Shown in pieces: positions 197 to 8,066 of a stretch of 25,222 bases of DNA. The translations under genes were made by a program, and so were the position numbers. Position 1 is the stretch's first letter. The number at the start of each line of letters is the position of its first letter. The stretch is from an uncultured Candidatus Binatia bacterium (GTDB taxonomy: Bacteria > Desulfobacterota > Binatia > DP-6). A model generated the notes under the pieces. It was not told the DNA's origin and made no database searches. It saw only the letters and a program-made list of their open reading frames with translations. Location of the stretch: contig CAZLYE010000298.1 of the NCBI GenBank assembly GCA_964562865.1, positions 1 through 25,222 on the forward strand, written 5' to 3'.

Positions 197-808
197 TCAG
201 CCGGTCTGCCGCCGTCCCGCCTCGCCCTTGCGCGGCGTCGAGCGCAGCGCCGGTCGCCTGGCCGGTCCCGCTCCGCCGTCGGCCTGGAGCGCCGACTCGA
301 GCTCGTCGACGAACGCGAGCTCGACGTCCAGGTGCCGCACCCGCCGGCCGAGCCACAGCGGGCGCGTGACGCTGCCGTCGGGCGCCCGGCCGTCGCGCAC
401 CATGTCGTGCGCGCGCCCGAGGTCCCGACGCCGGGCCTTCAGCTCCTCGCGCCACTCGCCCAGCACGCGGCTCGCGCGTCGCCCGCCGTTCTTCACGACG
501 AGGAACGCACGCAGGGAGTGCTCGTGCTCGTCCGACCCGTCGCATCCGTCGCGCGCGGGCACGGCCAGCCACGCGTCGAACGTGGCGCACCCCGCGTCCG
601 TGATCTGGTACGGGATGCGACGCGGGTCCGCGTCGGCCGGGTTCTCGCCGGGGCGCACCAGCCCGCCGTCCCTGAGGCGCTGGAGCTCGCGGTAGAAGTT
701 CCCGACGCTCAGCGCGCGCCCGGTCCCGTCACGATACTCCTTCATGAGCGCGTAGCCGTGCTGCGCCCGCCCGTGGCGGAGAAGACCCAGGATCAGATGC
801 CGCATCAT
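197..808 (-). CDS. PadR-family transcriptional regulator (long type, with C-terminal helical domain)
   Basis: N-terminal LILGLL…HGYALMKE…GNFYRELQRL…GLV…RRIPYQITDAG is the PadR winged-helix signature, followed by an amphipathic C-terminal domain. Confidence 0.9.
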   Translation of the reverse strand: MMRHLILGLLRHGRAQHGYALMKEYRDGTGRALSVGNFYRELQRLRDGGLVRPGENPADADPRRIPYQITDAGCATFDAWLAVPARDGCDGSDEHEHSLRAFLVVKNGGRRASRVLGEWREELKARRRDLGRAHDMVRDGRAPDGSVTRPLWLGRRVRHLDVELAFVDELESALQADGGAGPARRPALRSTPRKGEAGRRQTG

Positions 809-924
809 CGATCGATCCTCCCTTCGCTGGTTGCCGCGATTCGTGTCTACATTCGCTGTGACTCATGCGCGCTAGCTTGTTCAAGAGCAAGACCGGCACG
901 GCGTCCCGATTTTCCGTCCGAGTC

Positions 925-950
925 GGAACAGGCCTCATTCCGGCCCCGAA
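925..950 (+). promoter_or_regulatory. Candidate ECF-type promoter GGAAC-N17-CGAA
   Basis: GGAAC at 925-929 and CGAA at 947-950. Same spacing and -10 element as the box at 4809-4834. Intergenic, pointing toward the Cys-rich ORF. Confidence 0.35.
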
Positions 951-1098
951 TACCGCGGCGCGGCCGACGGATGGCGATCGCCTCGCCGTCCGCGCACGAT
1001 CGTCATGCCGGTGACGCCGCGTCCACCGCCGAACGCCCCGCCATGCGATCCGCCACGTCGGAGCGAGCGGACGTCGGCGAAAAGGTGCCCTTTCGCGA

Positions 1099-1114
1099 GG
1101 GTACGCTCGTTGCA
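1099..1114 (+). promoter_or_regulatory. Candidate sigma54 -24/-12 promoter
   Basis: GGGTACGCTCGTTGCA is GG-N10-GC with ACG and TTGCA, against consensus TGGCACG-N4-TTGCW. Predicted +1 near 1125, next to the ATG at 1126. Confidence 0.5.
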
Positions 1115-1125
1115 AGTCCCCCCGC

Positions 1126-1344
1126 ATGCGCCAGAGCATGGCCGGCACGACCCTCCCTCGCACGCGCCGCCGGGATCCGGTTCCTGACGAGGCTCCGCTG
1201 AGCGACGAGTCGCCACGGCCGGACCCCGCCGAGTGCTGGTGCTGTGGCGTGCCGGCGCCGTGCCGCTGCGAGCGGGCGGGTCGGTGCGACGAGTGCGGGT
1301 GGTGCCGCGAGCACTGCCGGTGCTTCCGCGAGGGCGAGCGATGA
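1126..1344 (+). CDS. Cys-rich microprotein, 72 aa (metallothionein-like or Zn-finger-like)
   Basis: C-terminal CWCCGVPAPCRCERAGRCDECGWCREHCRC holds 10 Cys and 1 His. Third positions are GC-rich. The stop overlaps the next ATG (ATGA, 1341-1344). Alternative start at ATG 1138. Confidence 0.6.
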   Translation: MRQSMAGTTLPRTRRRDPVPDEAPLSDESPRPDPAECWCCGVPAPCRCERAGRCDECGWCREHCRCFREGER

Positions 1345-1601
1345 GCGCGCCGGGCAGTGACGTCGTCTGCCGCGTCGTCGCGCGCGTCACCGGGCGGGCA
1401 CCCCTCGAGGTCGAGATCGTGCAGGACGCCGACCCGCGCAACGGATGGCTGGTCCGCGTCTGGCTCGACGACGGGACGCTGCGCGACTACCGCCTGAGTG
1501 CCGCTGCGAACGGCGCCGTCCCCGACGAGCTCGTCGAGGAGCGGTTCCCGCGCTGGCCGCCGGCGGACATCCGCGGGCGGATCCAGCGCTGCCGCTGCTG
1601 A
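1341..1601 (+). CDS. Hypothetical protein, 86 aa (MSAPGSDVVCRVVARVTG…RIQRCRC)
   Basis: ATGA coupling to the upstream ORF, coding-like codon usage, globular beta-rich composition. Start trimmed from the track ORF 1233..1601. Confidence 0.7.
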   Translation: MSAPGSDVVCRVVARVTGRAPLEVEIVQDADPRNGWLVRVWLDDGTLRDYRLSAAANGAVPDELVEERFPRWPPADIRGRIQRCRC

Positions 1602-1635
1602 GCGCCCCCGGGAGCCGTGAGGTCGGTCGCCGCGC

Positions 1636-2646
1636 TCAGCGGAGCGCCGGCACGACCTCGGCGCCAAGCGCCCGGAGCGACCCGAGTGCCACCTCCCGCG
1701 GGATGTTCGCCGACCCCGGGATGAGCCACACGAAGTCGAGGCCGAGCGCGGCGAGGCGGTGCAGGCGCTCGCGCGCGTGGGCCGCCGGCCCGGCGACGGC
1801 GAACCAGTCGACGAACGCGTCGTCGATCCCGGCGGTGTGCGGCACGTTCGTCCGCGTGTGCTCGCGCATGTCGTAGTGCTCGCGGAGCCAGCGGGCCGCG
1901 GCGGCGAGCGGCGGCGGGAGCTCCGCGAGCCGGCTCCCGGGGAGCGCGGAGAACCGCGCGAAGCTCGCGGCGGAGCCGCGTGCGGCGTCCCGCGCGACGC
2001 GTGCGTCGTCGTGGACGACGCAGTTGACGAAGGCGCCCCAGCGGAGCGCACGCGGATCGCGACCCGCGACGCGGGCGGCCTCGCGCGCCCGCGCCACCAC
2101 CGTACCGACGTACGCGGCGTCGGCGCCGACGGCGAGGCACACGGCGTCCGCGCGCCGCGCCGCCACCTCGACCACCCGGCGTCCGGTCGCGGCGACCATG
2201 ACCGGCGGCTTCGCCACGCCTGCGTGCGGCTGCCACTCGAGACGGCTCGCGAACCCGTCCCGGTCGACGGCCTCGCCGGCGAGATACGCCTGCAGCAGCG
2301 TCACGTAGCGCTCGAAGCTGGCGACGGGATCCTCCCGCTTCCCGATCCGCTGCACCGCCGAGTCGCCGCGCCCGATGCCGACGACCGCGCGCCCGCCGCT
2401 CTCCACCTGGAGGGCGAGGGCGGCCGACGCCGTCACGGCCGGGTCGCGGGTGAGCGAGTTCGTGACGCCCGGACCGAGGATCAGACGCGAGGTAGCGGCC
2501 GCCGCGAGCGCGAGCTGGCCCCACACCTCCGGAAGGAGGTTCTGGCTGTCGGGAAAGAGGACGCCCGCGAAGCCGAGACCCTCCACGAACTGCGCGAGCG
2601 GAGCCGCCTGACGCGGCGGGGCGAAGAGGAGCACACCGACGTCCAT
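1636..2646 (-). CDS. Luciferase-like (LLM) flavin- or F420-dependent oxidoreductase
   Basis: EGLGFAGVLFPDSQ, LAAAATSRLILGPGVTN, ESGGRAVVGIGRGD and PPVMVAATGRRVVEVAARRADAV match the Mer-like LLM TIM-barrel. ATG at 2646 preferred over the track TTG at 2685. Confidence 0.9.
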   Translation of the reverse strand: MDVGVLLFAPPRQAAPLAQFVEGLGFAGVLFPDSQNLLPEVWGQLALAAAATSRLILGPGVTNSLTRDPAVTASAALALQVESGGRAVVGIGRGDSAVQRIGKREDPVASFERYVTLLQAYLAGEAVDRDGFASRLEWQPHAGVAKPPVMVAATGRRVVEVAARRADAVCLAVGADAAYVGTVVARAREAARVAGRDPRALRWGAFVNCVVHDDARVARDAARGSAASFARFSALPGSRLAELPPPLAAAARWLREHYDMREHTRTNVPHTAGIDDAFVDWFAVAGPAAHARERLHRLAALGLDFVWLIPGSANIPREVALGSLRALGAEVVPALR

Positions 2647-2685
2647 GCGACGGCCCCTATCGCAGCCCGCGGCCCCGTCACGCAA

Positions 2686-3375
2686 CTACCCGCGCATCCC
2701 GACCCTCCGCGTGCGCGACGCCGGCACGCGCCATCGCGCGAGCCAGACGGCCCCCAGCGCGGCCGAGAGCGTCGTCCACACGAGGACCGGAATCATGTGC
2801 CAGGCGAGGACGTGCAGCGAATCGTCGATCGGGCAGGCGACGCGCACGGCGGCCGTGCCGACGACGAACGCCGCGAGGCCCGCGAGCGCTCCCGTGGTGC
2901 GCGCCTCGAGCGGGGCGCCGCGGCGGACGGCCACGAGGATCGCCACCCAGGGCAGCAGACCGAACATGGTGACGCAGAGCGCGCACTGGAGCCCACTCTG
3001 GACGGCCGGACTCCCCGACGACGGCACCGCCGGCTCCGCCAGGAGGAGCACGGCGCTCGCGACACTCAGCACGAGCGCGAGCCAGGCCATCCGGCGCCCG
3101 TCGCGGCCGGGGACGGCGCCGTGGAACGCGGCGCTCGCCGCCGCCGTCGCGGCAGCGAGCAACGTCGCGAGCTCGAGGAGATGGAGCGGCTGGCCGAGCG
3201 TCTTCAGGTCGTGGCGGAGGCTCGCCGCCATCGCGACGCCGATCACGAGCGCGACGAGGAGGAGCCACGAGGCGAGACGTGCCGCCGGCGACCAGAGCGG
3301 GTGCACCGGCGCCAGATCGGCCTTGAGCCGCGCGACGAGCGTATCGTGGACCGGAGGTGTGCGGAGGGCCGTCAC
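2686..3375 (-). CDS. nrsF: NrsF / DUF1109 family membrane anti-sigma factor
   Basis: N-terminal LVARLKADLAPV, about six hydrophobic segments, RRGAP, Cys motifs QCALC and ACPID, and HVLAWH. GTGA overlap with the upstream ECF sigma stop. Confidence 0.88.
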   Translation of the reverse strand: MTALRTPPVHDTLVARLKADLAPVHPLWSPAARLASWLLLVALVIGVAMAASLRHDLKTLGQPLHLLELATLLAAATAAASAAFHGAVPGRDGRRMAWLALVLSVASAVLLLAEPAVPSSGSPAVQSGLQCALCVTMFGLLPWVAILVAVRRGAPLEARTTGALAGLAAFVVGTAAVRVACPIDDSLHVLAWHMIPVLVWTTLSAALGAVWLARWRVPASRTRRVGMRG

Positions 3376-3908
3376 AGGAGCTCCCGCAGCATCTTGTACG
3401 CCCGATGCGCGCGGACCTTGAGCGCGCCGGTCGTCGTGCCGGCGGCCTCGGCCGCCTCCTCGGGCGGCAGCCCGTCGAGCCGCAGCAGCCGGACGGCCTC
3501 ACGCTGGGACGCGGAGAGCGCCCCCAGGGCCTGCTCGAGACGCGTCTTCAGATGACCGTCGGCCTCGGTCGCCACCTCCGGGATCACGTCGACGAGGACC
3601 TCGTGCGCCTGGCGCGTGAGCCCGCGGCGCCGGTGGTCGGCCGCCACGCGTCGAGCGATCGCGAAGAACCACGGCTCGAGCGGGCGCGATGGCTCGTAGG
3701 TGTGCCGCGCGCGATGGAGCGCCATGAAGATCTCCTGATACACGTCCTGGGCGTCCTCCGACCGCCGCACGTGCCGCCGCACGAACCGCATCACGATCGG
3801 ACCCATCTCGTCGAGCAGCTCGCCATACGCATTCGCATCGCCCCGCTGCACCTCCGCCATGAGCCTGGCACGGCGATGGCTCGTCTCGTCACGGTCCCTC
3901 AGCTTCAT
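3372..3908 (-). CDS. ECF sigma factor, copy 1 (ECF16/SigF-like), coupled to nrsF
   Basis: Region 2 LMAEVQRGDANAYGELL…DVYQEIFMALHRARHTYEPSRPLEPWFFAIAR; region 4 LSASQREAVRL…GALKVRAHRAYKML. Start uncertain (3953, 3908 or 3860). Confidence 0.92.
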   Translation of the reverse strand: MKLRDRDETSHRRARLMAEVQRGDANAYGELLDEMGPIVMRFVRRHVRRSEDAQDVYQEIFMALHRARHTYEPSRPLEPWFFAIARRVAADHRRRGLTRQAHEVLVDVIPEVATEADGHLKTRLEQALGALSASQREAVRLLRLDGLPPEEAAEAAGTTTGALKVRAHRAYKMLRELL

Positions 3909-3909
3909 A

Positions 3910-3934
3910 TTCGTCAGGAGCGAGCGGAAGTTAC
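3910..3934 (-). promoter_or_regulatory. Candidate autoregulatory ECF16 box GTAACT-N15-CGAA
   Basis: Minus strand reads GTAACT (3934-3929), TCCGCTCGCTCCTGA, CGAA (3913-3910), T, ATG. Spacer is one base shorter than the 4809 box. Confidence 0.45.
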
Positions 3935-4174
3935 GGCAACCCGGGCGACGCATGTGAACCCGGTCGGCCGCCCGAGTCAATCCACCCTCGAGGGGTTTTG
4001 CGTTTCCGGAAGGTGTCGGCGCGAGGAATCTTCCGCGCTCGGGCGGTGCGCCGATGCCACCCATCCAGAGCCGCGTAACTCCTGCCGTGGCGCCCCCAAT
4101 GATCGAGAAGGGAAACGGCGCATCACGGTCCGCCGTGCACGGCGCCAGACTGCGGGCCGGAGCCCCTGCATCAC

Positions 4175-4771
4175 GTGGTACGCATCGCCACCACAGAGCC
4201 GGCGTCGGAGACCGCGGTCGTGGACCGCCGCGATCCGCCGTCGCGAGCCGAGCGGAGCATGCGCCGCGCGGAGCTGATGCGGTGCGCGCAGCGCGGGGAT
4301 CGGAGCGCCTACGGAGCGCTGCTCGAGGACTCGCTCGCGATCCTGACGACGCTCTTCCGCCGGCGGCTGTCGGATCCACGGGACGTCGAGGACGTCTGTC
4401 AGGAGACGTTGATCGCCGTGCATCGGGCGCGGCACAGCTTCGACGCGTCCCGGCCGTTCGAGCCCTGGCTCGTGGCCATCGCAGGGCACGTCCTCGCCGA
4501 CCACGTGCGGCGGCGCGTCCGCAGGCGCCCCGAGATCCTCGTCGCGATCCCCCCGGAAACGGTGGGAGAAGGCGACGGCGCGGCGGAGTTCGGCTTCGAG
4601 CAGGCCCTCGCGCGCCTGCCCGGAGCGCAGCGCGAGGCCTTCACGCTGATCCAGGTGGAGGGGCTGCCGGTCGAGACGGCCGCCGCCCGCGCCAACACCA
4701 GCGCCGCCGCGCTGAAGGTGCGCGCACATCGCGCGTACAAGGTCCTCCGCGACTCGCTGCGCCGAGTCTGA
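4175..4771 (+). CDS. ECF sigma factor, copy 2 (ECF16/SigF-like), divergent from copy 1
   Basis: LMRCAQRGDRSAYGALL…DVCQETLIAVHRARHSFDASRPFEPWLVAIA…LPGAQREAF…ALKVRAHRAYKVL. About half of aligned residues match copy 1 by manual count. GTG start is uncertain. Confidence 0.9.
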   Translation: MVRIATTEPASETAVVDRRDPPSRAERSMRRAELMRCAQRGDRSAYGALLEDSLAILTTLFRRRLSDPRDVEDVCQETLIAVHRARHSFDASRPFEPWLVAIAGHVLADHVRRRVRRRPEILVAIPPETVGEGDGAAEFGFEQALARLPGAQREAFTLIQVEGLPVETAAARANTSAAALKVRAHRAYKVLRDSLRRV

Positions 4772-4808
4772 GCGTCCGCGCGACGATCCGCCGAGAGATC
4801 GCGCCCCG

Positions 4809-4834
4809 GTAACCGCGGACGGATGGCGATCGAA
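4809..4834 (+). promoter_or_regulatory. ECF16/SigF-type promoter GTAACC-N16-CGAA
   Basis: GTAACC (4809-4814), GCGGACGGATGGCGAT, CGAA (4831-4834). Matches the consensus I recall for Caulobacter SigF. Lies 43 nt upstream of the ATG at 4878, next to two ECF16-type sigmas. Confidence 0.75.
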
Positions 4835-4877
4835 CTGTGGGAAGAGCGCAGTCATCCATCTCACGAAGGGGGGACCC

Positions 4878-6320
4878 ATGAGAAACACGTCGTTCGTTTC
4901 GTTGTCACTCGTTCTTCTCGCCACGTTCGCCGAGGCCGTCCAACCGCCGCCGCCCTGCCACCCGAACGCGACCGCGGGCATGGATGTCGCCGTCGTCAGC
5001 AACCGGGGGGACATCAAGAACCTTCCCGCTCCGTTGAAGGCGCAGCTCGTGCAGCTCGCCTCCCGGCCGCACAGCCAGCTTCCCACCCAGGCGTACGCCG
5101 AGGCGCACTTCGACAACGGCGCGCCTAAGCCGAGCCAGCTCTTCCAGTACTACCTCCTCGACACGAAGGGCTTCGAGCCGAATCCCTTCACGGCCCTGTT
5201 TCCGGGGATCAACGACCAGGCGATGCTGACGGCGACCGGCCCCGACTGCGACCTGCCGACGATCGGTGCGGTCCGCCTCGTCCTCGAGCCCAAGCCGGCT
5301 CTCCCGACGGACCCGAACAACGTGCGCGCGTTCATCGACGTCTTCACCGACGTCGAAGGGCTCTTCGTGATCAACAACGAGAGCGGCTGGTACGAGGGCT
5401 GGATGATCCACGACCTCGAGGTCGCGCCGACCGACAACACGCCCCGTCCCGACGGCCACGCGAAGTTCGGCATGCTCCTCAAGAAGGACGCCGACGCCCT
5501 CAAGGCGATGGGGATGGGCAACAACGTCTTTCCCCACACGTTCACGACCAACGGGAAGCCACCGGAGCCGCCCCAGCCGACGGACCAGTTCCCGACGAAG
5601 CAGACGAACCTCGTGCCGATCCAGCTGAGCATGGGGGCATGGAACACGCTCCAGCAGAGCGACGGGCACGGCTACTGGGAGTTCAACTACACCACGAACT
5701 GGATCCACCCGCTCTACGAGCTCCCCTTCACCGGCGGCCTCCCGGGCACCTTCGAGGCCGGCAAGGTCGGGGCGCTCCAGTCCATCGTCCCGGGTTCGGG
5801 CCCGGCGGGCATCAAGAACGATCCCGTCAGGTACGGCGACAACCCGAACAACAGGGGCGTGATCCAGGCCTCGGGTCCGCGCGACCCCGACAAGTTCGAC
5901 GCCGACGTCGACGATCAGCGCGAGTTTCGCCAGCGTTTCATTCCGAGCGGTCTCGCCAACGAGGTCTTCCTCGACGTCTACGAGCGGCTCGCCTCGTTCG
6001 AGCCGTCCGTCCACGACTTCAACCAGCGCCTCTTCGATGCGTACGCCGCGGAGGTCAAGAGGGTCGACACCAACGGCGACGGCGTCGTCTCGGCGTTCGA
6101 GGGCGACGTGGACACCGCCTCGGACGGCTTCCCCGACAACGAGCGGCTGTTCATTCCCGCGACGAAGTTCAACCGCTTCGCCGTGACGCGCGAGATCAAC
6201 GACGGGCTGCTCGCCCCGCGCTTCGCGCCCAGCCAGAAGGCGTGGGTGCTGTCGGGGATCATCCACCCCGTGAACCCGTCCGTGCCGGCCTCGACGGGCG
6301 AGGACAGCGACGACCGCTGA
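4878..6320 (+). CDS. Secreted protein of unknown function, 480 aa, with one EF-hand-like loop
   Basis: SD GAAGGGGGG; Sec signal peptide MRNTSFVSLSLVLLATFAEA; strong C/G-ending codon bias; DTNGDGVVSAFE at residues 397-408. No family recognised. Confidence 0.92.
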   Translation: MRNTSFVSLSLVLLATFAEAVQPPPPCHPNATAGMDVAVVSNRGDIKNLPAPLKAQLVQLASRPHSQLPTQAYAEAHFDNGAPKPSQLFQYYLLDTKGFEPNPFTALFPGINDQAMLTATGPDCDLPTIGAVRLVLEPKPALPTDPNNVRAFIDVFTDVEGLFVINNESGWYEGWMIHDLEVAPTDNTPRPDGHAKFGMLLKKDADALKAMGMGNNVFPHTFTTNGKPPEPPQPTDQFPTKQTNLVPIQLSMGAWNTLQQSDGHGYWEFNYTTNWIHPLYELPFTGGLPGTFEAGKVGALQSIVPGSGPAGIKNDPVRYGDNPNNRGVIQASGPRDPDKFDADVDDQREFRQRFIPSGLANEVFLDVYERLASFEPSVHDFNQRLFDAYAAEVKRVDTNGDGVVSAFEGDVDTASDGFPDNERLFIPATKFNRFAVTREINDGLLAPRFAPSQKAWVLSGIIHPVNPSVPASTGEDSDDR

Positions 6321-6321
6321 A

Positions 6322-6789
6322 TCAGCCCCGCTCGCAGATCACGACCGGGATCTCACGCGTCGTCCGATCCTGGTACTGCGCGTAGTCCGGGTACATGGCG
6401 ACGAGACGCGGCCAGAGGACGCGCCGCTCCTCTGGCCGCGCCGTCCTGGCGCGCATCGGCACGCGCTCCCCGCCGATCTCGACCTCGCAGCGGGGTTCGC
6501 TGCGGAGGTTCAGGTACCAGGCCGGATGGTGGCTCATGCCGCCCTTCGAGCCGACGACGACGACGCGGTCGCCGTCCCGCAGGTAGAGCAGCGCGACCGT
6601 CCGCAACGCCCCCGACTTCCGGCCGCGTGTCGTCACGAGACAGATCGGCGCGCCGCCACGGAAGCGTGCGCCCAGCCGGCCGCCCGTCAGCCGGAAGAGC
6701 CAGACGTTGGCGGCGGTCATGATCCGGATGAAGACGGTCCCGATCCACTCCTGCGTCGGCGTCCAGGGCTCGAGCGGTGTCTGGGCCAT
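6322..6789 (-). CDS. Deazaflavin (F420H2)-dependent nitroreductase-family oxidoreductase (Ddn-like)
   Basis: LVTTRGRKSGALRTVALLYLRDGDRVVVVGSKGG…HPAWYLNL…YAQYQDRTTREIPVV. SD GAGGGGG before ATG 6789. True start lies inside the track ORF 6322..7950. Confidence 0.93.
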   Translation of the reverse strand: MAQTPLEPWTPTQEWIGTVFIRIMTAANVWLFRLTGGRLGARFRGGAPICLVTTRGRKSGALRTVALLYLRDGDRVVVVGSKGGMSHHPAWYLNLRSEPRCEVEIGGERVPMRARTARPEERRVLWPRLVAMYPDYAQYQDRTTREIPVVICERG

Positions 6790-6806
6790 GGGTCCCCCTC
6801 CCAAAC

Positions 6807-8021
6807 TCAGTCGCGATACAGCCTGTGCGCGGCCGCTTCCCTCGCGAACGCCCGGATCTCTCCCCGCCACTCGGCCGCGAGGTCGCGCAGCGACGCTCCC
6901 GACTCGATCGCCTCCCGGATGCGCGGATCCCCGGTGAGGACGTCGATCGGCAGCCGATCCGTCACGTACTCGTAGGGCGGCTGCTTCCACGCGAATCGGT
7001 CGCGGTGGAGCGCGACGACGTCCTGCAGGAGCGCGAGCGTCGTCAGATACGGCTGGTAGCGCGCCGGGTCCGTCACGTGGATCTGGAAGCCGCGACAGAC
7101 CTCGCCGCTCCACTTGTGGAACGTCGGCTGGAAGTCGTGCTCGCGGAGGACGCACCCGGGAAGGCGGCGCTTCTCGAAGCGGGCACGCACCGCGAGGGGG
7201 TCGAGATACGGCGCGCCCCAGACCTCGAAGGGCCGCGTCGTCCCGCGTCCCTCGGAGAGGTTCGTGCCCTCGAGGAGCACCTGCCCGGGATAGACCGCCG
7301 CCGTCTCGGGCGTCGGCATGTTGGGTGACGGGAGCACCCACGGGAGCCCGGTCTCGTGGAAGCTCATGCGCCGCCGCCATCCCTCCATCGGGACGACGGT
7401 CAGCTCGCACGGGCGCTTCCCCGTGCGCTCGGGAAGGCGCGCGTTCACGAGGAGCGCCATCTCGCCGAGCGTCAGCGCGTGGCGCATCGGCACGGGGTAG
7501 AGCCCGACGAACGACTCGTAGCCCGGGCGGATCACGTTCCCCTCGAGCATCGTCCCGCCGATGGGGTTCGGGCGGTCGAGCACCACGACCGACTTGCCCG
7601 CCGCTGCGCACGCCTCGAGCGCGAGCGCGGTCGTCCACTCGAACGTGTACACGCGGGTGCCGACGTCCTGCAGGTCGACGACCAGCGTGTCGATGTGCTC
7701 GAGCATCGCCGGGGTGGGGCTCCGCGTCTCCGAGTAGAGGCTGAAGACGGGGATGCCGAGCCGGCCGTCGGTCGCGTGGCTCGACTCGATCATGTTGTCC
7801 TGCTTCTCGCCCGCGATGCCGTGCTGCGGGCCGAAGAGCGCCGTGAGCCGCGCGCCGCAGAGCCGGTGGAGGACGTCGCGCGACGACACGAGTCCGCGCG
7901 TGACCGACGCCTGGTGCATGAGAAGCCCGACGCGCCGCTCCCGGAGCCATCGCGGCCGCCGGTGCGCCAGCACCTCGAGCCCCGGCAGCACGCCCCGCGT
8001 CCTCCTCACCCCGTCTCCCAT
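6807..8021 (-). CDS. namZ: DUF1343 / exo-beta-N-acetylmuramidase NamZ family
   Basis: VGLLMHQAS, LFGPQHG, SLY, DLQDVGTRVYT, VVVLDRPNPIGG, LPWVLPSPNMPT, LEGTNLSEGRGTTRPFE. No signal peptide visible. Confidence 0.9.
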   Translation of the reverse strand: MGDGVRRTRGVLPGLEVLAHRRPRWLRERRVGLLMHQASVTRGLVSSRDVLHRLCGARLTALFGPQHGIAGEKQDNMIESSHATDGRLGIPVFSLYSETRSPTPAMLEHIDTLVVDLQDVGTRVYTFEWTTALALEACAAAGKSVVVLDRPNPIGGTMLEGNVIRPGYESFVGLYPVPMRHALTLGEMALLVNARLPERTGKRPCELTVVPMEGWRRRMSFHETGLPWVLPSPNMPTPETAAVYPGQVLLEGTNLSEGRGTTRPFEVWGAPYLDPLAVRARFEKRRLPGCVLREHDFQPTFHKWSGEVCRGFQIHVTDPARYQPYLTTLALLQDVVALHRDRFAWKQPPYEYVTDRLPIDVLTGDPRIREAIESGASLRDLAAEWRGEIRAFAREAAAHRLYRD

Positions 8022-8037
8022 CGTCCCCGCGCCGCGG

Positions 8038-8066
8038 ATTTCACACCGTCCGGGGCGCGAGATCAA
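8038..8066 (-). promoter_or_regulatory. Candidate sigma70 promoter TTGATC-N17-TGAAAT for namZ
   Basis: -35 at 8066-8061 and -10 at 8043-8038, just upstream of ATG 8021. Partial consensus match only. Confidence 0.35.

What the first reader, a model, noticed from the sequence alone, without database searches (positions are those of the whole stretch)
925..6320. Candidate undescribed stress system: twin ECF16 sigmas + NrsF + novel secreted EF-hand protein + 10-Cys microprotein
Seen: within 5.4 kb lie a Cys-containing NrsF anti-sigma, two paralogous sigmas, three related G(T/G)AAC…CGAA boxes (925, 3934, 4809), a 480-aa secreted unknown and a 10-Cys peptide. Established (from memory): SigF/NrsF in Caulobacter responds to heavy metals and controls DUF692/DUF2063/DUF2282/DoxX (bufferin-type) genes; related pairs elsewhere control methionine sulfoxide reductases. 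None of those effectors is in this window. Inference: the same sensor is wired to a different, uncharacterised output.
Basis: partly seen in the sequence, partly recalled or inferred. Interest (0 to 1): 0.8.

Follow-up and report, generated by a model that had tools for sequence, protein, structure and literature searches.

The report
ECF16 sigma pair driving unknown secreted protein
A known type of bacterial stress switch (a SigF/NrsF-like sigma factor and its membrane anti-sigma factor, here with a duplicated sigma) appears to control a secreted 480-residue protein from a widespread, highly conserved, unannotated family with no detectable structural relative; the 10-cysteine peptide nearby is a real gene but shows no link to the switch.

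Summary
The window holds an NrsF/DUF1109 anti-sigma (2686-3375), two paralogous ECF sigmas (50% identical), and a 480-aa Sec-type protein. GTAAC-N16/17-CGAA occurs twice where 0.03 is expected by chance. One box lies upstream of sigA. The other, a perfect ECF16 consensus, lies 44 nt upstream of the 480-aa gene.

The sigma/480-aa gene adjacency and the boxes are conserved in the closest relatives (79-85% identity: L083, L084/85, L086, L097, and a decayed copy in L090/93). They are absent from 80 species-representative genomes, so the ECF16 wiring is specific to this clade.

The 480-aa family is large (>3,385 homologues, 64-85% identity across phyla). It has no Pfam, NCBIfam or PDB match. A confident AlphaFold model (pLDDT 90.7) has no Foldseek neighbour. 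Family members sit next to other ECF sigmas and carry a different ECF-type promoter (TGAACC-N16-GGAAT) in Proteobacteria.

The box at 925 is no better than chance. The 10-Cys ORF is real and is paired with an 86-aa gene, but it is absent from the syntenic relative. "EF-hand protein" overstates what is a single DxNxDG loop. An LLM oxidoreductase gene that follows nrsF on the same strand was overlooked.

The parts
3372..3863 (-). sigA: ECF sigma factor (ECF16/SigF-like), first gene of the sigA-nrsF-LLM operon
   Evidence: Sigma70_r2 and r4_2. 79% identical to the syntenic L083 sigma. The stop codon overlaps the nrsF GTG start (GTGA). The upstream ORF extension 3864-3909 has GC3 of 0.53, so it looks non-coding.
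2686..3375 (-). nrsF: DUF1109/NrsF membrane anti-sigma factor
   Evidence: PF06532, E=8e-26, 91.6 bits. Six hydrophobic segments; Cys131, Cys134 and Cys181. Cys131 is invariant and Cys181 is kept in 3 of 4 relatives. These are the positions shown to matter in Caulobacter NrsF (PMC3511200).
1636..2646 (-). LLM-class (F420-type) oxidoreductase, probably co-transcribed with sigA-nrsF
   Evidence: Bac_luciferase E=2.4e-45; the best NCBIfam hits are F420 LLM families, all below their cut-offs. The ATG at 2646 lies 39 nt after the nrsF stop, with an AGGGG ribosome-binding site. No terminator-like site between nrsF and the LLM start; one lies inside the LLM gene (2590-2563) and terminator-like sites are not enriched over shuffles. 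Same operon position in L083, 85% identical.
3910..3934 (-). Putative sigA (autoregulatory) promoter: GTAAC-N16-CGAA
   Evidence: The same -35 and spacing are conserved in L083 (CCAA), L084 (CTAA) and L097 (N18-CCAA).
4075..4099 (+).
   Evidence: Conserved in L083 (9198) and L084 (294), in intergenic DNA that is otherwise 68% identical and full of gaps.
4175..4771 (+). sigB: orphan paralogue of sigA, with no anti-sigma gene of its own
   Evidence: Sigma70_r2/r4_2. 50% identical to sigA, with an identical region 4.2 helix ALKVRAHRAYK. 66-71% identical to the L083 and L084 copies, including the N-terminal extension. The start could also be the ATG at 4259.
4809..4834 (+). Promoter of the 480-aa gene: GTAACC-N16-CGAA, a perfect ECF16 consensus
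   Evidence: GTAACCGC and CGAACTGT are invariant in the window, L083, L084 and L085, while the spacer and flanks vary. It matches GTAACC-N16-CGAA (PMC3511200) and (T/C)GTAAC-N17-CGAA (PMC8315932). It ends 44 nt before the ATG at 4878.
4878..6320 (+). 480-aa exported protein of a large, unannotated, highly conserved family; the probable output of the sigma pair
   Evidence: No Pfam, NCBIfam or PDB sequence hit. More than 3,385 homologues. AF2 pLDDT 90.7, pTM 0.91. No Foldseek match in PDB or BFVD. Conserved DxNxDG loop at 397-408. N-terminal hydrophobic segment followed by AEA|VQPPPPCHPN; only two Cys, at 27 and 124.

Best explanation
This is a clade-specific ECF16-type (SigF/NrsF-like) envelope-stress switch with a duplicated sigma factor and a dedicated, previously undescribed target gene.

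Shown by sequence:
- sigA and nrsF are translationally coupled and are followed by an LLM oxidoreductase gene.
- sigA, sigB and the 480-aa gene each carry a GTAAC -35 box at ECF16 spacing. The two sigma genes have GTAAC-N16-C(G/C)AA. The 480-aa gene has GTAACC-N16-CGAAC.
- These boxes and the gene order are conserved in relatives.

Inferred:
- NrsF, a six-helix membrane protein with the conserved Cys131 and Cys181, holds SigA (and possibly SigB) inactive until a thiol-reactive envelope stress (metal, HOCl or another oxidant) releases it.
- Free SigA raises transcription of its own operon and of sigB.
- SigB and/or SigA then transcribe the 480-aa gene, giving a feed-forward cascade.
- The 480-aa protein is exported by the Sec pathway, binds Ca2+ at its DxNxDG loop, and acts in the periplasm or outside the cell.

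The biochemical activity of the 480-aa protein is unknown. The many invariant Asp, Glu, Arg and Trp residues suggest an enzyme or ligand-binding protein rather than a simple structural one. The 10-Cys peptide/86-aa gene pair next to the PadR gene is a separate unit.
For: - Module identity.
- Box statistics: GTAAC-N16/17-CGAA gives 2 hits against 0.03 expected. Three of the four GTAAC sites in 25 kb lie here and point at genes.
- Phylogenetic footprint of the 480-aa promoter in four sequences and of both sigma promoters.
- Conserved adjacency: L083 has sigma-NrsF divergent from sigB followed by the homologue. L084/85 have sigB followed by the homologue. L086 and L097 have sigma(-NrsF) divergent from the homologue, with a conserved CGTAACAAC...CCA(C/A) box pointing at it. 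L090/93 have an NrsF remnant plus GTAAC-N17-CCAA directly upstream.
- sigA and sigB share an identical region 4.2 helix, which fits a shared -35.
- The published ECF16 consensus and the role of the two cysteines: PMC3511200 and PMC8315932.
- The family is ECF-linked in general. ECF sigma genes occur at 7.5 per 100 kb within 1 kb of homologues, against about 1.4 per 100 kb at 2-5 kb.
- A different conserved ECF-type promoter, TGAACC-N15-17-GGAAY, is found in 14 of 149 upstream regions, against 2 and 0 in controls.
- In Amycolatopsis an ECF sigma with a Rieske protein is divergent from a homologue.
Against: - There are no expression data. All promoters are inferred from motifs.
- The sigma-gene boxes have N16 spacing and a variable -10 (CGAA, CCAA or CTAA), not the canonical N17-CGAA.
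- The assignment to ECF16 rests on the NrsF partner and the promoter, not on a group-specific profile or tree.
- Most homologues (about 87% of 153 non-redundant loci) have no sigma gene within 1 kb. None of 80 reference-genome loci has NrsF or the box, so the link is not a property of the family as a whole.
- Which sigma reads which promoter is not known, nor is the inducing signal.
- No terminator-like site lies between sigB and the 480-aa gene, so read-through could add to its expression.
Confidence: 0.65

Rival explanations
1. The 480-aa protein is not, or not only, the output. It is a periplasmic component of the signalling pathway, such as a co-sensor or modulator that acts on NrsF or on the orphan SigB. 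That would explain why it travels with ECF sigma genes.
For: - It sits next to ECF sigmas of at least three unrelated types and in different orders. In L028, L030 and L044 the order is homologue, then sigma, then S8 peptidase on one strand, with no recognisable anti-sigma gene.
- In Amycolatopsis an ECF sigma with a Rieske protein is divergent from a homologue.
- sigB has no anti-sigma gene of its own.
Against: - About 87% of homologues have no sigma gene within 1 kb.
- Identity of 64-85% across phyla is unusual for a partner-specific sensor, which would be expected to co-evolve with its sigma/anti-sigma pair.
- The gene has its own sigma-type promoter, as targets do.
Confidence: 0.15
2. One reading: the 10-Cys microprotein (1126-1344) and the box at 925 belong to the same regulon as a second, cysteine-rich (bufferin-like or metal-binding) output.
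For: - The ORF is real. In L169 the last 33 codons are conserved with all 7 Cys, with 9 synonymous and 4 non-synonymous changes. It is followed by the 86-aa partner, which is 78% identical.
- A GGAAC-N17-CGAA site lies upstream.
- An 18-nt near-copy of the 480-aa promoter spacer lies at 963-980.
Against: - The box is at chance level: 0.30 expected, and 28% of shuffles have at least one. It has GGAAC rather than the GTAAC found in every conserved box.
- It lies 176 nt from the ATG.
- The pair is absent from the syntenic relative L083, which keeps everything else.
- The peptide has no signal peptide, and no MNIO/DUF692 partner was found among the ORFs scanned, unlike bufferins (PMC11626156).
- A divergent PadR regulator gene at 197-808 is the simpler candidate regulator.
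Confidence: 0.1
3. Chance juxtaposition: the 480-aa gene merely lies beside a sigma/anti-sigma locus and is transcribed by the housekeeping sigma factor. The GTAACC-CGAA match has no function.
For: - Homologues in most genomes stand alone in variable contexts.
- There are no expression data.
Against: - The match has an expectation of 0.03 and is invariant across four diverged sequences.
- The adjacency recurs in at least five distinct loci.
- No sigma-70-like promoter is found in 700-6900.
Confidence: 0.05

Closest known systems
Caulobacter crescentus SigF-NrsF (the ECF16 prototype; PMC3511200, PMC11626156)
   Same: - An ECF sigma gene followed by a six-helix DUF1109/NrsF anti-sigma gene.
- Cysteines at the equivalent positions, 131 and 181.
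- Target promoter GTAACC-N16-CGAA.
- A small regulon encoded close to the sigma gene.
   Different: - The known targets (the bufferin operon with DUF2282, DUF692, DUF2063 and DoxX, and sulfur-metabolism genes) are absent here.
- The target here is a 480-aa exported protein of an unannotated family.
- A second, orphan sigma paralogue sits between the module and the target.
- An LLM oxidoreductase gene follows nrsF.
Brucella BcrS-AbcS, Azospira SigF-NrsF and Bradyrhizobium EcfF-OsrA (ECF16 systems that control MsrPQ and a Met-rich peptide; PMC8315932, PMC4436054, PMC3420878)
   Same: - The same sigma/anti-sigma architecture.
- The same TGTAAC-N17-CGAA promoter type.
- The target lies next to and divergent from the sigma gene.
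   Different: - There is no methionine sulfoxide reductase and no Met-rich scavenger peptide in the window.
- The inducing signal (HOCl or ROS in those systems) is untested here.
EF-hand / DxDxDG calcium-binding loop proteins
   Same: One 12-residue loop, D397-x-N-x-D-G-x-x-S-x-x-E408, preceded by a helix (381-396). The loop is conserved across the family.
   Different: - There is only a single loop and no paired helix-loop-helix.
- All Pfam EF-hand models score below their cut-offs.
- The loop makes up under 3% of a mostly beta-strand, 450-residue domain that has no structural neighbour.

Membership tests
ECF16 (SigF-like) sigma factors | ECF architecture: sigma-70 regions 2 and 4 only | tested here: met
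   Both sigmas hit Sigma70_r2 and Sigma70_r4_2 and nothing else. NCBIfam TIGR02937 sigma70-ECF scores above its cut-off.
ECF16 (SigF-like) sigma factors | A cognate anti-sigma of the DUF1109/NrsF type encoded immediately downstream | tested here: met
   Met for sigA: nrsF starts at a GTGA overlap with the sigA stop. Not met for sigB, which is followed by the 480-aa gene and has no anti-sigma gene.
ECF16 (SigF-like) sigma factors | Target promoter (T/C)GTAAC-N17-CGAA | tested here: met
   The box at 4809-4834 is an exact match, conserved in L083, L084 and L085. The sigma-gene boxes deviate, with N16 spacing and C(G/C/T)AA. The consensus comes from PMC3511200 and PMC8315932.
ECF16 (SigF-like) sigma factors | Placement in the ECF16 group by a group-specific profile or phylogeny | not testable with these tools
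   No ECF-group HMM library was available. The best NCBIfam hits (PRK12512, PRK12539) are generic and below their cut-offs.
NrsF (PF06532) anti-sigma factors | Pfam model hit above the gathering score | tested here: met
   91.6 bits against a cut-off of 26.8, covering positions 1-204 of the 204-position model.
NrsF (PF06532) anti-sigma factors | Six transmembrane helices and two conserved cysteines (C131 and C181 in Caulobacter) | tested here: met
   Six hydrophobic segments by Kyte-Doolittle hydropathy; Cys at 131, 134 and 181. C131 is invariant, and C181 is conserved in 3 of 4 relatives.
NrsF (PF06532) anti-sigma factors | Binds and inhibits its sigma factor, and releases it on stress | not testable with these tools
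   This needs a two-hybrid or fractionation experiment.
Bufferin-type or Msr-type ECF16 regulon | DUF692 (MNIO), DUF2063, DUF2282 or BUF_6/12Cys precursor with a signal peptide, DoxX, or MsrP/Q next to the sigma gene | tested here: not met
   None of these families was found among the window ORFs scanned. The 10-Cys peptide has no signal-like hydrophobic segment, and no MNIO partner was found among the ORFs scanned.
EF-hand proteins | A Pfam EF-hand model above its cut-off, with paired helix-loop-helix motifs | tested here: not met
   EF-hand_5 gives E=0.16, 11.9 bits against a cut-off of 25.9. 41 of 101 relatives give sub-threshold hits, the best at E=0.002. There is only one loop, although its D, N, D, G and E positions are conserved.
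DUF4331 (the label UniRef gives to the Amycolatopsis relatives) | Match to the Pfam DUF4331 model | tested here: not met
   No DUF4331 hit at E<=10 for the window protein, P0325 or P0327. None at E<=1 for 101 family members. A remote relationship is not excluded, because no profile-profile test was possible.

The most novel reading that the evidence does not exclude
The 480-aa protein defines a previously undescribed exported protein family with a fold not represented in the PDB and a Ca2+-binding loop. It would serve as a general envelope-stress effector (or periplasmic co-sensor) in soil bacteria of many phyla. It has been placed independently under at least three different ECF sigma families: ECF16/NrsF in this clade, a TGAACC-N16-GGAAT sigma in Proteobacteria, and a sigma paired with a Rieske protein in Amycolatopsis.
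Probability: 0.45. Interest if true: 0.7.

Novelty: new variant of a known kind. Interest (0 to 1): 0.55.

Why it matters
ECF16 systems are known to sense metals, HOCl and oxidants, and to switch on bufferins or methionine sulfoxide reductases. This locus shows the same sensor type, duplicated, wired to a different gene. That gene belongs to one of the more striking unannotated families seen here:
- It has thousands of members.
- Members are 64-85% identical across Acidobacteria, Proteobacteria, Actinobacteria, Chloroflexi and others.
- The protein is exported.
- It has no domain annotation and no structural neighbour in the PDB.

Regulatory context is so far the only functional clue for the family. 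It points to envelope stress, and it gives a concrete way to study the protein: cultured carriers exist in Paraburkholderia, Massilia, Janthinobacterium, Dyella and Amycolatopsis.

Tried and rejected
- AlphaFold on a shallow alignment (46 sequences, 74-84% identical) failed, with pLDDT 35. It worked only after distant relatives were added.
- Sequence and profile searches of the PDB found nothing.
- Foldseek against PDB and BFVD gave best E-values of 0.55 and 0.23, with TM-scores of about 0.1 or lower among the top hits.
- Pfam, NCBIfam and a tblastn search of plasmids found nothing for the 480-aa protein.
- The UniRef label 'DUF4331' could not be reproduced, and no paper mentions that family.
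- The strict box G[TG]AAC-N15-19-CGAA upstream of homologues occurs in 1 of 82 genome loci, so general conservation is rejected.
- NrsF was searched for by tblastn and by a profile HMM in all 168 loci. It is present only in L083, L097 and L139, with a remnant in L090/93.
- L139 was considered as an independent ECF16-to-homologue operon. This was rejected because a terminator hairpin separates the homologue from the genes driven by the box.
- L036 (sigma, then a 197-aa secreted protein, then the homologue) has no clear box.
- The micro ORF and the 86-aa ORF have no Pfam or NCBIfam hit.
- The contig of a second 86-aa homologue had no DNA available, so conservation of the 925 box could not be tested.
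- The taxon of the window could not be determined.


Full report
**Anatomy of the region**

The window has about 74% G+C, so ORF lists are crowded with spurious frames. I separated real genes by codon-position G+C and by family hits. The genes in and around the finding are:
- PadR regulator, 197-808(-).
- A 72-aa ORF, 1126-1344(+), with exactly 10 Cys. It overlaps by ATGA an 86-aa ORF, 1341-1601(+), which has a clear coding signature (GC3 0.93).
- LLM-class oxidoreductase, 1636-2646(-).
- NrsF/DUF1109, 2686-3375(-) (PF06532, 91.6 bits).
- ECF sigma 'sigA', 3372-3863(-). Its stop overlaps the nrsF GTG start (GTGA).
- ECF sigma 'sigB', 4175-4771(+).
- A 480-aa ORF, 4878-6320(+), with no family hit.
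- A convergent deazaflavin-dependent nitroreductase-family gene (6322-6801) and NamZ (6807-8066).

sigA and sigB are 50% identical and share an identical region 4.2 helix, ALKVRAHRAYK. NrsF has six hydrophobic segments and Cys131, Cys134 and Cys181. Cys131 is invariant in four relatives and Cys181 is kept in three. These are the two positions whose substitution de-represses the regulon in Caulobacter (PMC3511200).

**The boxes**

The published ECF16 recognition sequence is GTAACC-N16-CGAA (PMC3511200), also written (T/C)GTAAC-N17-CGAA (PMC8315932).
- GTAAC-N16/17-CGAA occurs twice in the 25 kb, where 0.03 is expected. No shuffle out of 100 reached two.
- The two sites are 3910-3934(-), upstream of sigA, and 4809-4834(+), which ends 44 nt before the ATG of the 480-aa gene. 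The second is an exact match to the consensus.
- GTAAC itself occurs only four times in the window. Three of the four lie here, each pointing at a gene.
- The third is at 4075(+), GTAAC-N16-CCAA, upstream of sigB.
It is no better than chance (0.30 expected; 28% of shuffles have at least one).
- No sigma-70-like promoter was found in 700-6900 and terminator-like sites were not enriched over shuffles; none lies between nrsF and the LLM start or between sigB and the 480-aa gene.

**Conservation in the closest relatives**

The two nearest homologues of the 480-aa protein (85% identical) lie on contigs that keep the arrangement.
- L083 has sigma-NrsF-(Gluconate_2-dh3)-(GMC oxidoreductase)-LLM on one strand. 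On the other strand it has sigB followed by the homologue.
- L084/L085 have sigB followed by the homologue, with the start of a divergent sigA at the contig edge.
- Upstream of the homologue, GTAACCGC and CGAACTGT are invariant in all four sequences, while the 16-nt spacer and the flanks vary.
- The sigma-gene boxes keep GTAAC and the N16 spacing, with -10 elements CGAA, CCAA or CTAA, in intergenic DNA that is otherwise poorly alignable.

In the next clade (79-80% identity):
- L097 has sigma-NrsF divergent from the homologue, and L086 has a divergent sigma at its contig edge.
- Both share a conserved CGTAACAAC.GCC...CCAC element pointing at the homologue, and a GTAACAATTGGC element pointing at the sigma gene.
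- L090/L093 carry only a 97-codon C-terminal remnant of NrsF directly upstream. A GTAAC-N17-CCAA box lies at its end. This looks like a decayed copy of the same module.

**How general is the link?**

It is not general for ECF16.
- In 80 loci from species-representative genomes (64-80% identity; Acidobacteria, Alpha-, Beta-, Gamma- and Deltaproteobacteria, Acidimicrobiia, Chloroflexi, Binatia, Myxococcota), tblastn and a profile HMM found no NrsF. Only 1 of 82 upstream regions had a G[TG]AAC-N15-19-CGAA box.
- Neighbouring genes are otherwise variable.

The one recurrent neighbour is an ECF sigma gene.
- Across 153 non-redundant loci, sigma genes occur at 7.5 per 100 kb within 1 kb of the homologue. 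This falls to 4.6, 2.1, 1.8 and 0 per 100 kb in successive 1-kb bins.
- In Proteobacteria the partner is a different, conserved sigma (L028/L141 type, 10 loci), often with a subtilase gene next door.
- There the homologue is preceded by a different conserved ECF-type promoter, TGAACC-N15-17-GGAAY. It occurs in 14 of 149 upstream regions, against 2 in reverse-complement controls and 0 in coding controls.
- In Amycolatopsis samaneae an ECF sigma with a Rieske-domain protein is divergent from the homologue.

So the family has repeatedly been placed under ECF control, and the ECF16/NrsF wiring is one clade's version of this.

**The 480-aa protein**

- It has a short N-terminal hydrophobic segment followed by AEA|VQPPPPCHPN, no other hydrophobic segment, and two Cys, at 27 and 124. 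This fits Sec export.
- The family is large: more than 3,385 hits among the candidates scored.
- It is compact. At 50% clustering almost everything collapses into one cluster, with a handful of full-length relatives at 33-48% identity.
- No Pfam, NCBIfam or PDB sequence or profile match exists.
- A shallow alignment gave a useless model (pLDDT 35). After adding the distant clade, AlphaFold gave pLDDT 90.7 and pTM 0.91 for a mostly beta-strand protein with a few helices.
- Foldseek found nothing in the PDB (best E 0.55) or in BFVD (best E 0.23), with TM-scores of about 0.1 or lower among the top hits. No AlphaFold-DB library was available, so 'no known fold' holds only relative to solved structures.
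- The 'EF-hand' is one DxNxDGxxSxxE loop (397-408) after helix 381-396. Its D, N, D, G and E positions are conserved, but every Pfam EF-hand model scores below its cut-off.
- Across the whole family the invariant residues are mainly Asp, Glu, Arg, Gly and Pro, plus Trp171, Trp175 and His264. This is compatible with an enzyme or a ligand- or metal-binding protein, but it identifies no activity.
- UniRef labels two Amycolatopsis relatives 'DUF4331'. I could not reproduce this, and no paper mentions that family.

**The microprotein**

The ORF is real.
- A short contig (L169) begins inside its homologue. It conserves the last 33 codons with all seven Cys, with nine synonymous and four non-synonymous changes.
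- That ORF is followed, after a 29-nt insertion, by a 78%-identical homologue of the 86-aa gene.

Nothing ties this pair to the sigma module.
- It is absent from L083, which keeps every other part.
- The box at 925 is at chance level and lacks the GTAAC found in all conserved boxes.
- The peptide has no signal peptide, and no MNIO partner was found among the ORFs scanned, unlike the bufferins of the Caulobacter SigF regulon (PMC11626156).
- A divergent PadR gene is the simpler candidate regulator.
- An 18-nt near-copy of the 480-aa promoter spacer at 963-980 is unexplained.

**Most likely mechanism**

Shown: the gene content, the overlaps, the box statistics and the conservation.

Inferred:
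- NrsF sequesters SigA (and perhaps SigB) until a thiol-reactive envelope stress releases it.
- SigA then raises transcription of sigA-nrsF-LLM and of sigB from the N16 boxes.
- SigB and/or SigA fire the perfect N17 box and produce the exported 480-aa protein.

The different spacing and -10 elements of the sigma-gene boxes and the target box hint at a division of labour between the two paralogues. This is speculation.

**Verdict**

The sigma/anti-sigma module is an ordinary member of a known kind. The new elements are:
- the duplicated orphan sigma;
- the target family itself, which is widespread, strongly conserved, unannotated, structurally unmatched and repeatedly ECF-linked.

The system type is known, two of the five listed parts do not belong, and nothing is yet known about what the protein does.

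Noticed in passing
window 1126-1601 (+), with PadR at 197-808 (-): A 72-aa 10-Cys ORF and an 86-aa ORF overlap by ATGA and form a real two-gene unit. It is conserved in L169 (mostly synonymous changes, all Cys kept) and in the P0388 contig. Neither ORF has a family hit or a signal peptide. The unit is absent from the syntenic L083.
   Followed up: partly
window 963-980 vs 4815-4832; also 1045-1071 vs 4230-4256 and 1060-1074 vs 3917-3931: Short near-copies (18 nt at 94% identity, and others) of sequences from the 480-aa promoter spacer, the 5' region of sigB and the sigA promoter spacer lie in the PadR/microprotein intergenic region. They may be remnants of a duplicated promoter region, or chance matches in GC-rich DNA.
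   Followed up: partly
L017, L018, L021, L028, L030, L035, L038, L044, L048, L141 (box also in L019, L024, L040, L043, L059, L063, L115, L120, L152, L155, L165): Proteobacterial homologues of the 480-aa protein carry a conserved ECF-type promoter, TGAACC-N15-17-GGAAY, about 140-190 nt upstream. They often have a conserved ECF sigma of another type next door, followed by a Peptidase_S8 gene and with no recognisable anti-sigma gene.
   Followed up: partly
L090 4487-4780 and L093 (same region): A 97-codon C-terminal fragment of NrsF lies directly upstream of the homologue on the same strand, with GTAAC-N17-CCAA at its end. This appears to be a decayed ECF16 module.
   Followed up: partly
L084 294-1605: In this relative the GTAAC-N16-CCAA box that precedes sigB elsewhere is followed first by a 408-aa ORF (GC3 0.88). 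The ORF has a signal/TM-like N-terminus, Thr-rich linkers and a Cys-rich C-terminal half. It may be an extra regulon member.
   Followed up: no
L139 778-4784: In an organism with 55% G+C, sigma-NrsF is divergent from a perfect GTAACC-N16-CGAAC box. The box precedes a 356-aa secreted protein and a DHOR di-haem peroxidase-like gene. The 477-aa homologue follows after a terminator hairpin.
   Followed up: partly
L173 (Amycolatopsis samaneae) 3639-6419: An ECF sigma gene and an overlapping Rieske-domain gene are divergent from a family member. A TGTAAC lies about 95 nt upstream of the family member's ATG.
   Followed up: no
window 1636-2646 and 6322-6801; L083 4283-9063: F420-type genes (an LLM oxidoreductase and an F420H2-dependent quinone reductase-like gene) flank the module. 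In L083 the sigma operon also carries Gluconate_2-dh3 and GMC oxidoreductase genes between nrsF and LLM.
   Followed up: partly
P0325 and P0327 (Amycolatopsis relatives): UniRef names these proteins 'DUF4331 domain-containing protein'. hmmscan against Pfam finds no such hit in them or in 101 family members.
   Followed up: partly
window 4878-6320: The G+C of the 480-aa gene (about 66%) is lower than that of its flanks (72-76%), but its GC3 (0.94) matches the host. The dip therefore reflects amino-acid composition rather than recent acquisition, even though the family has clearly moved between phyla.
   Followed up: partly
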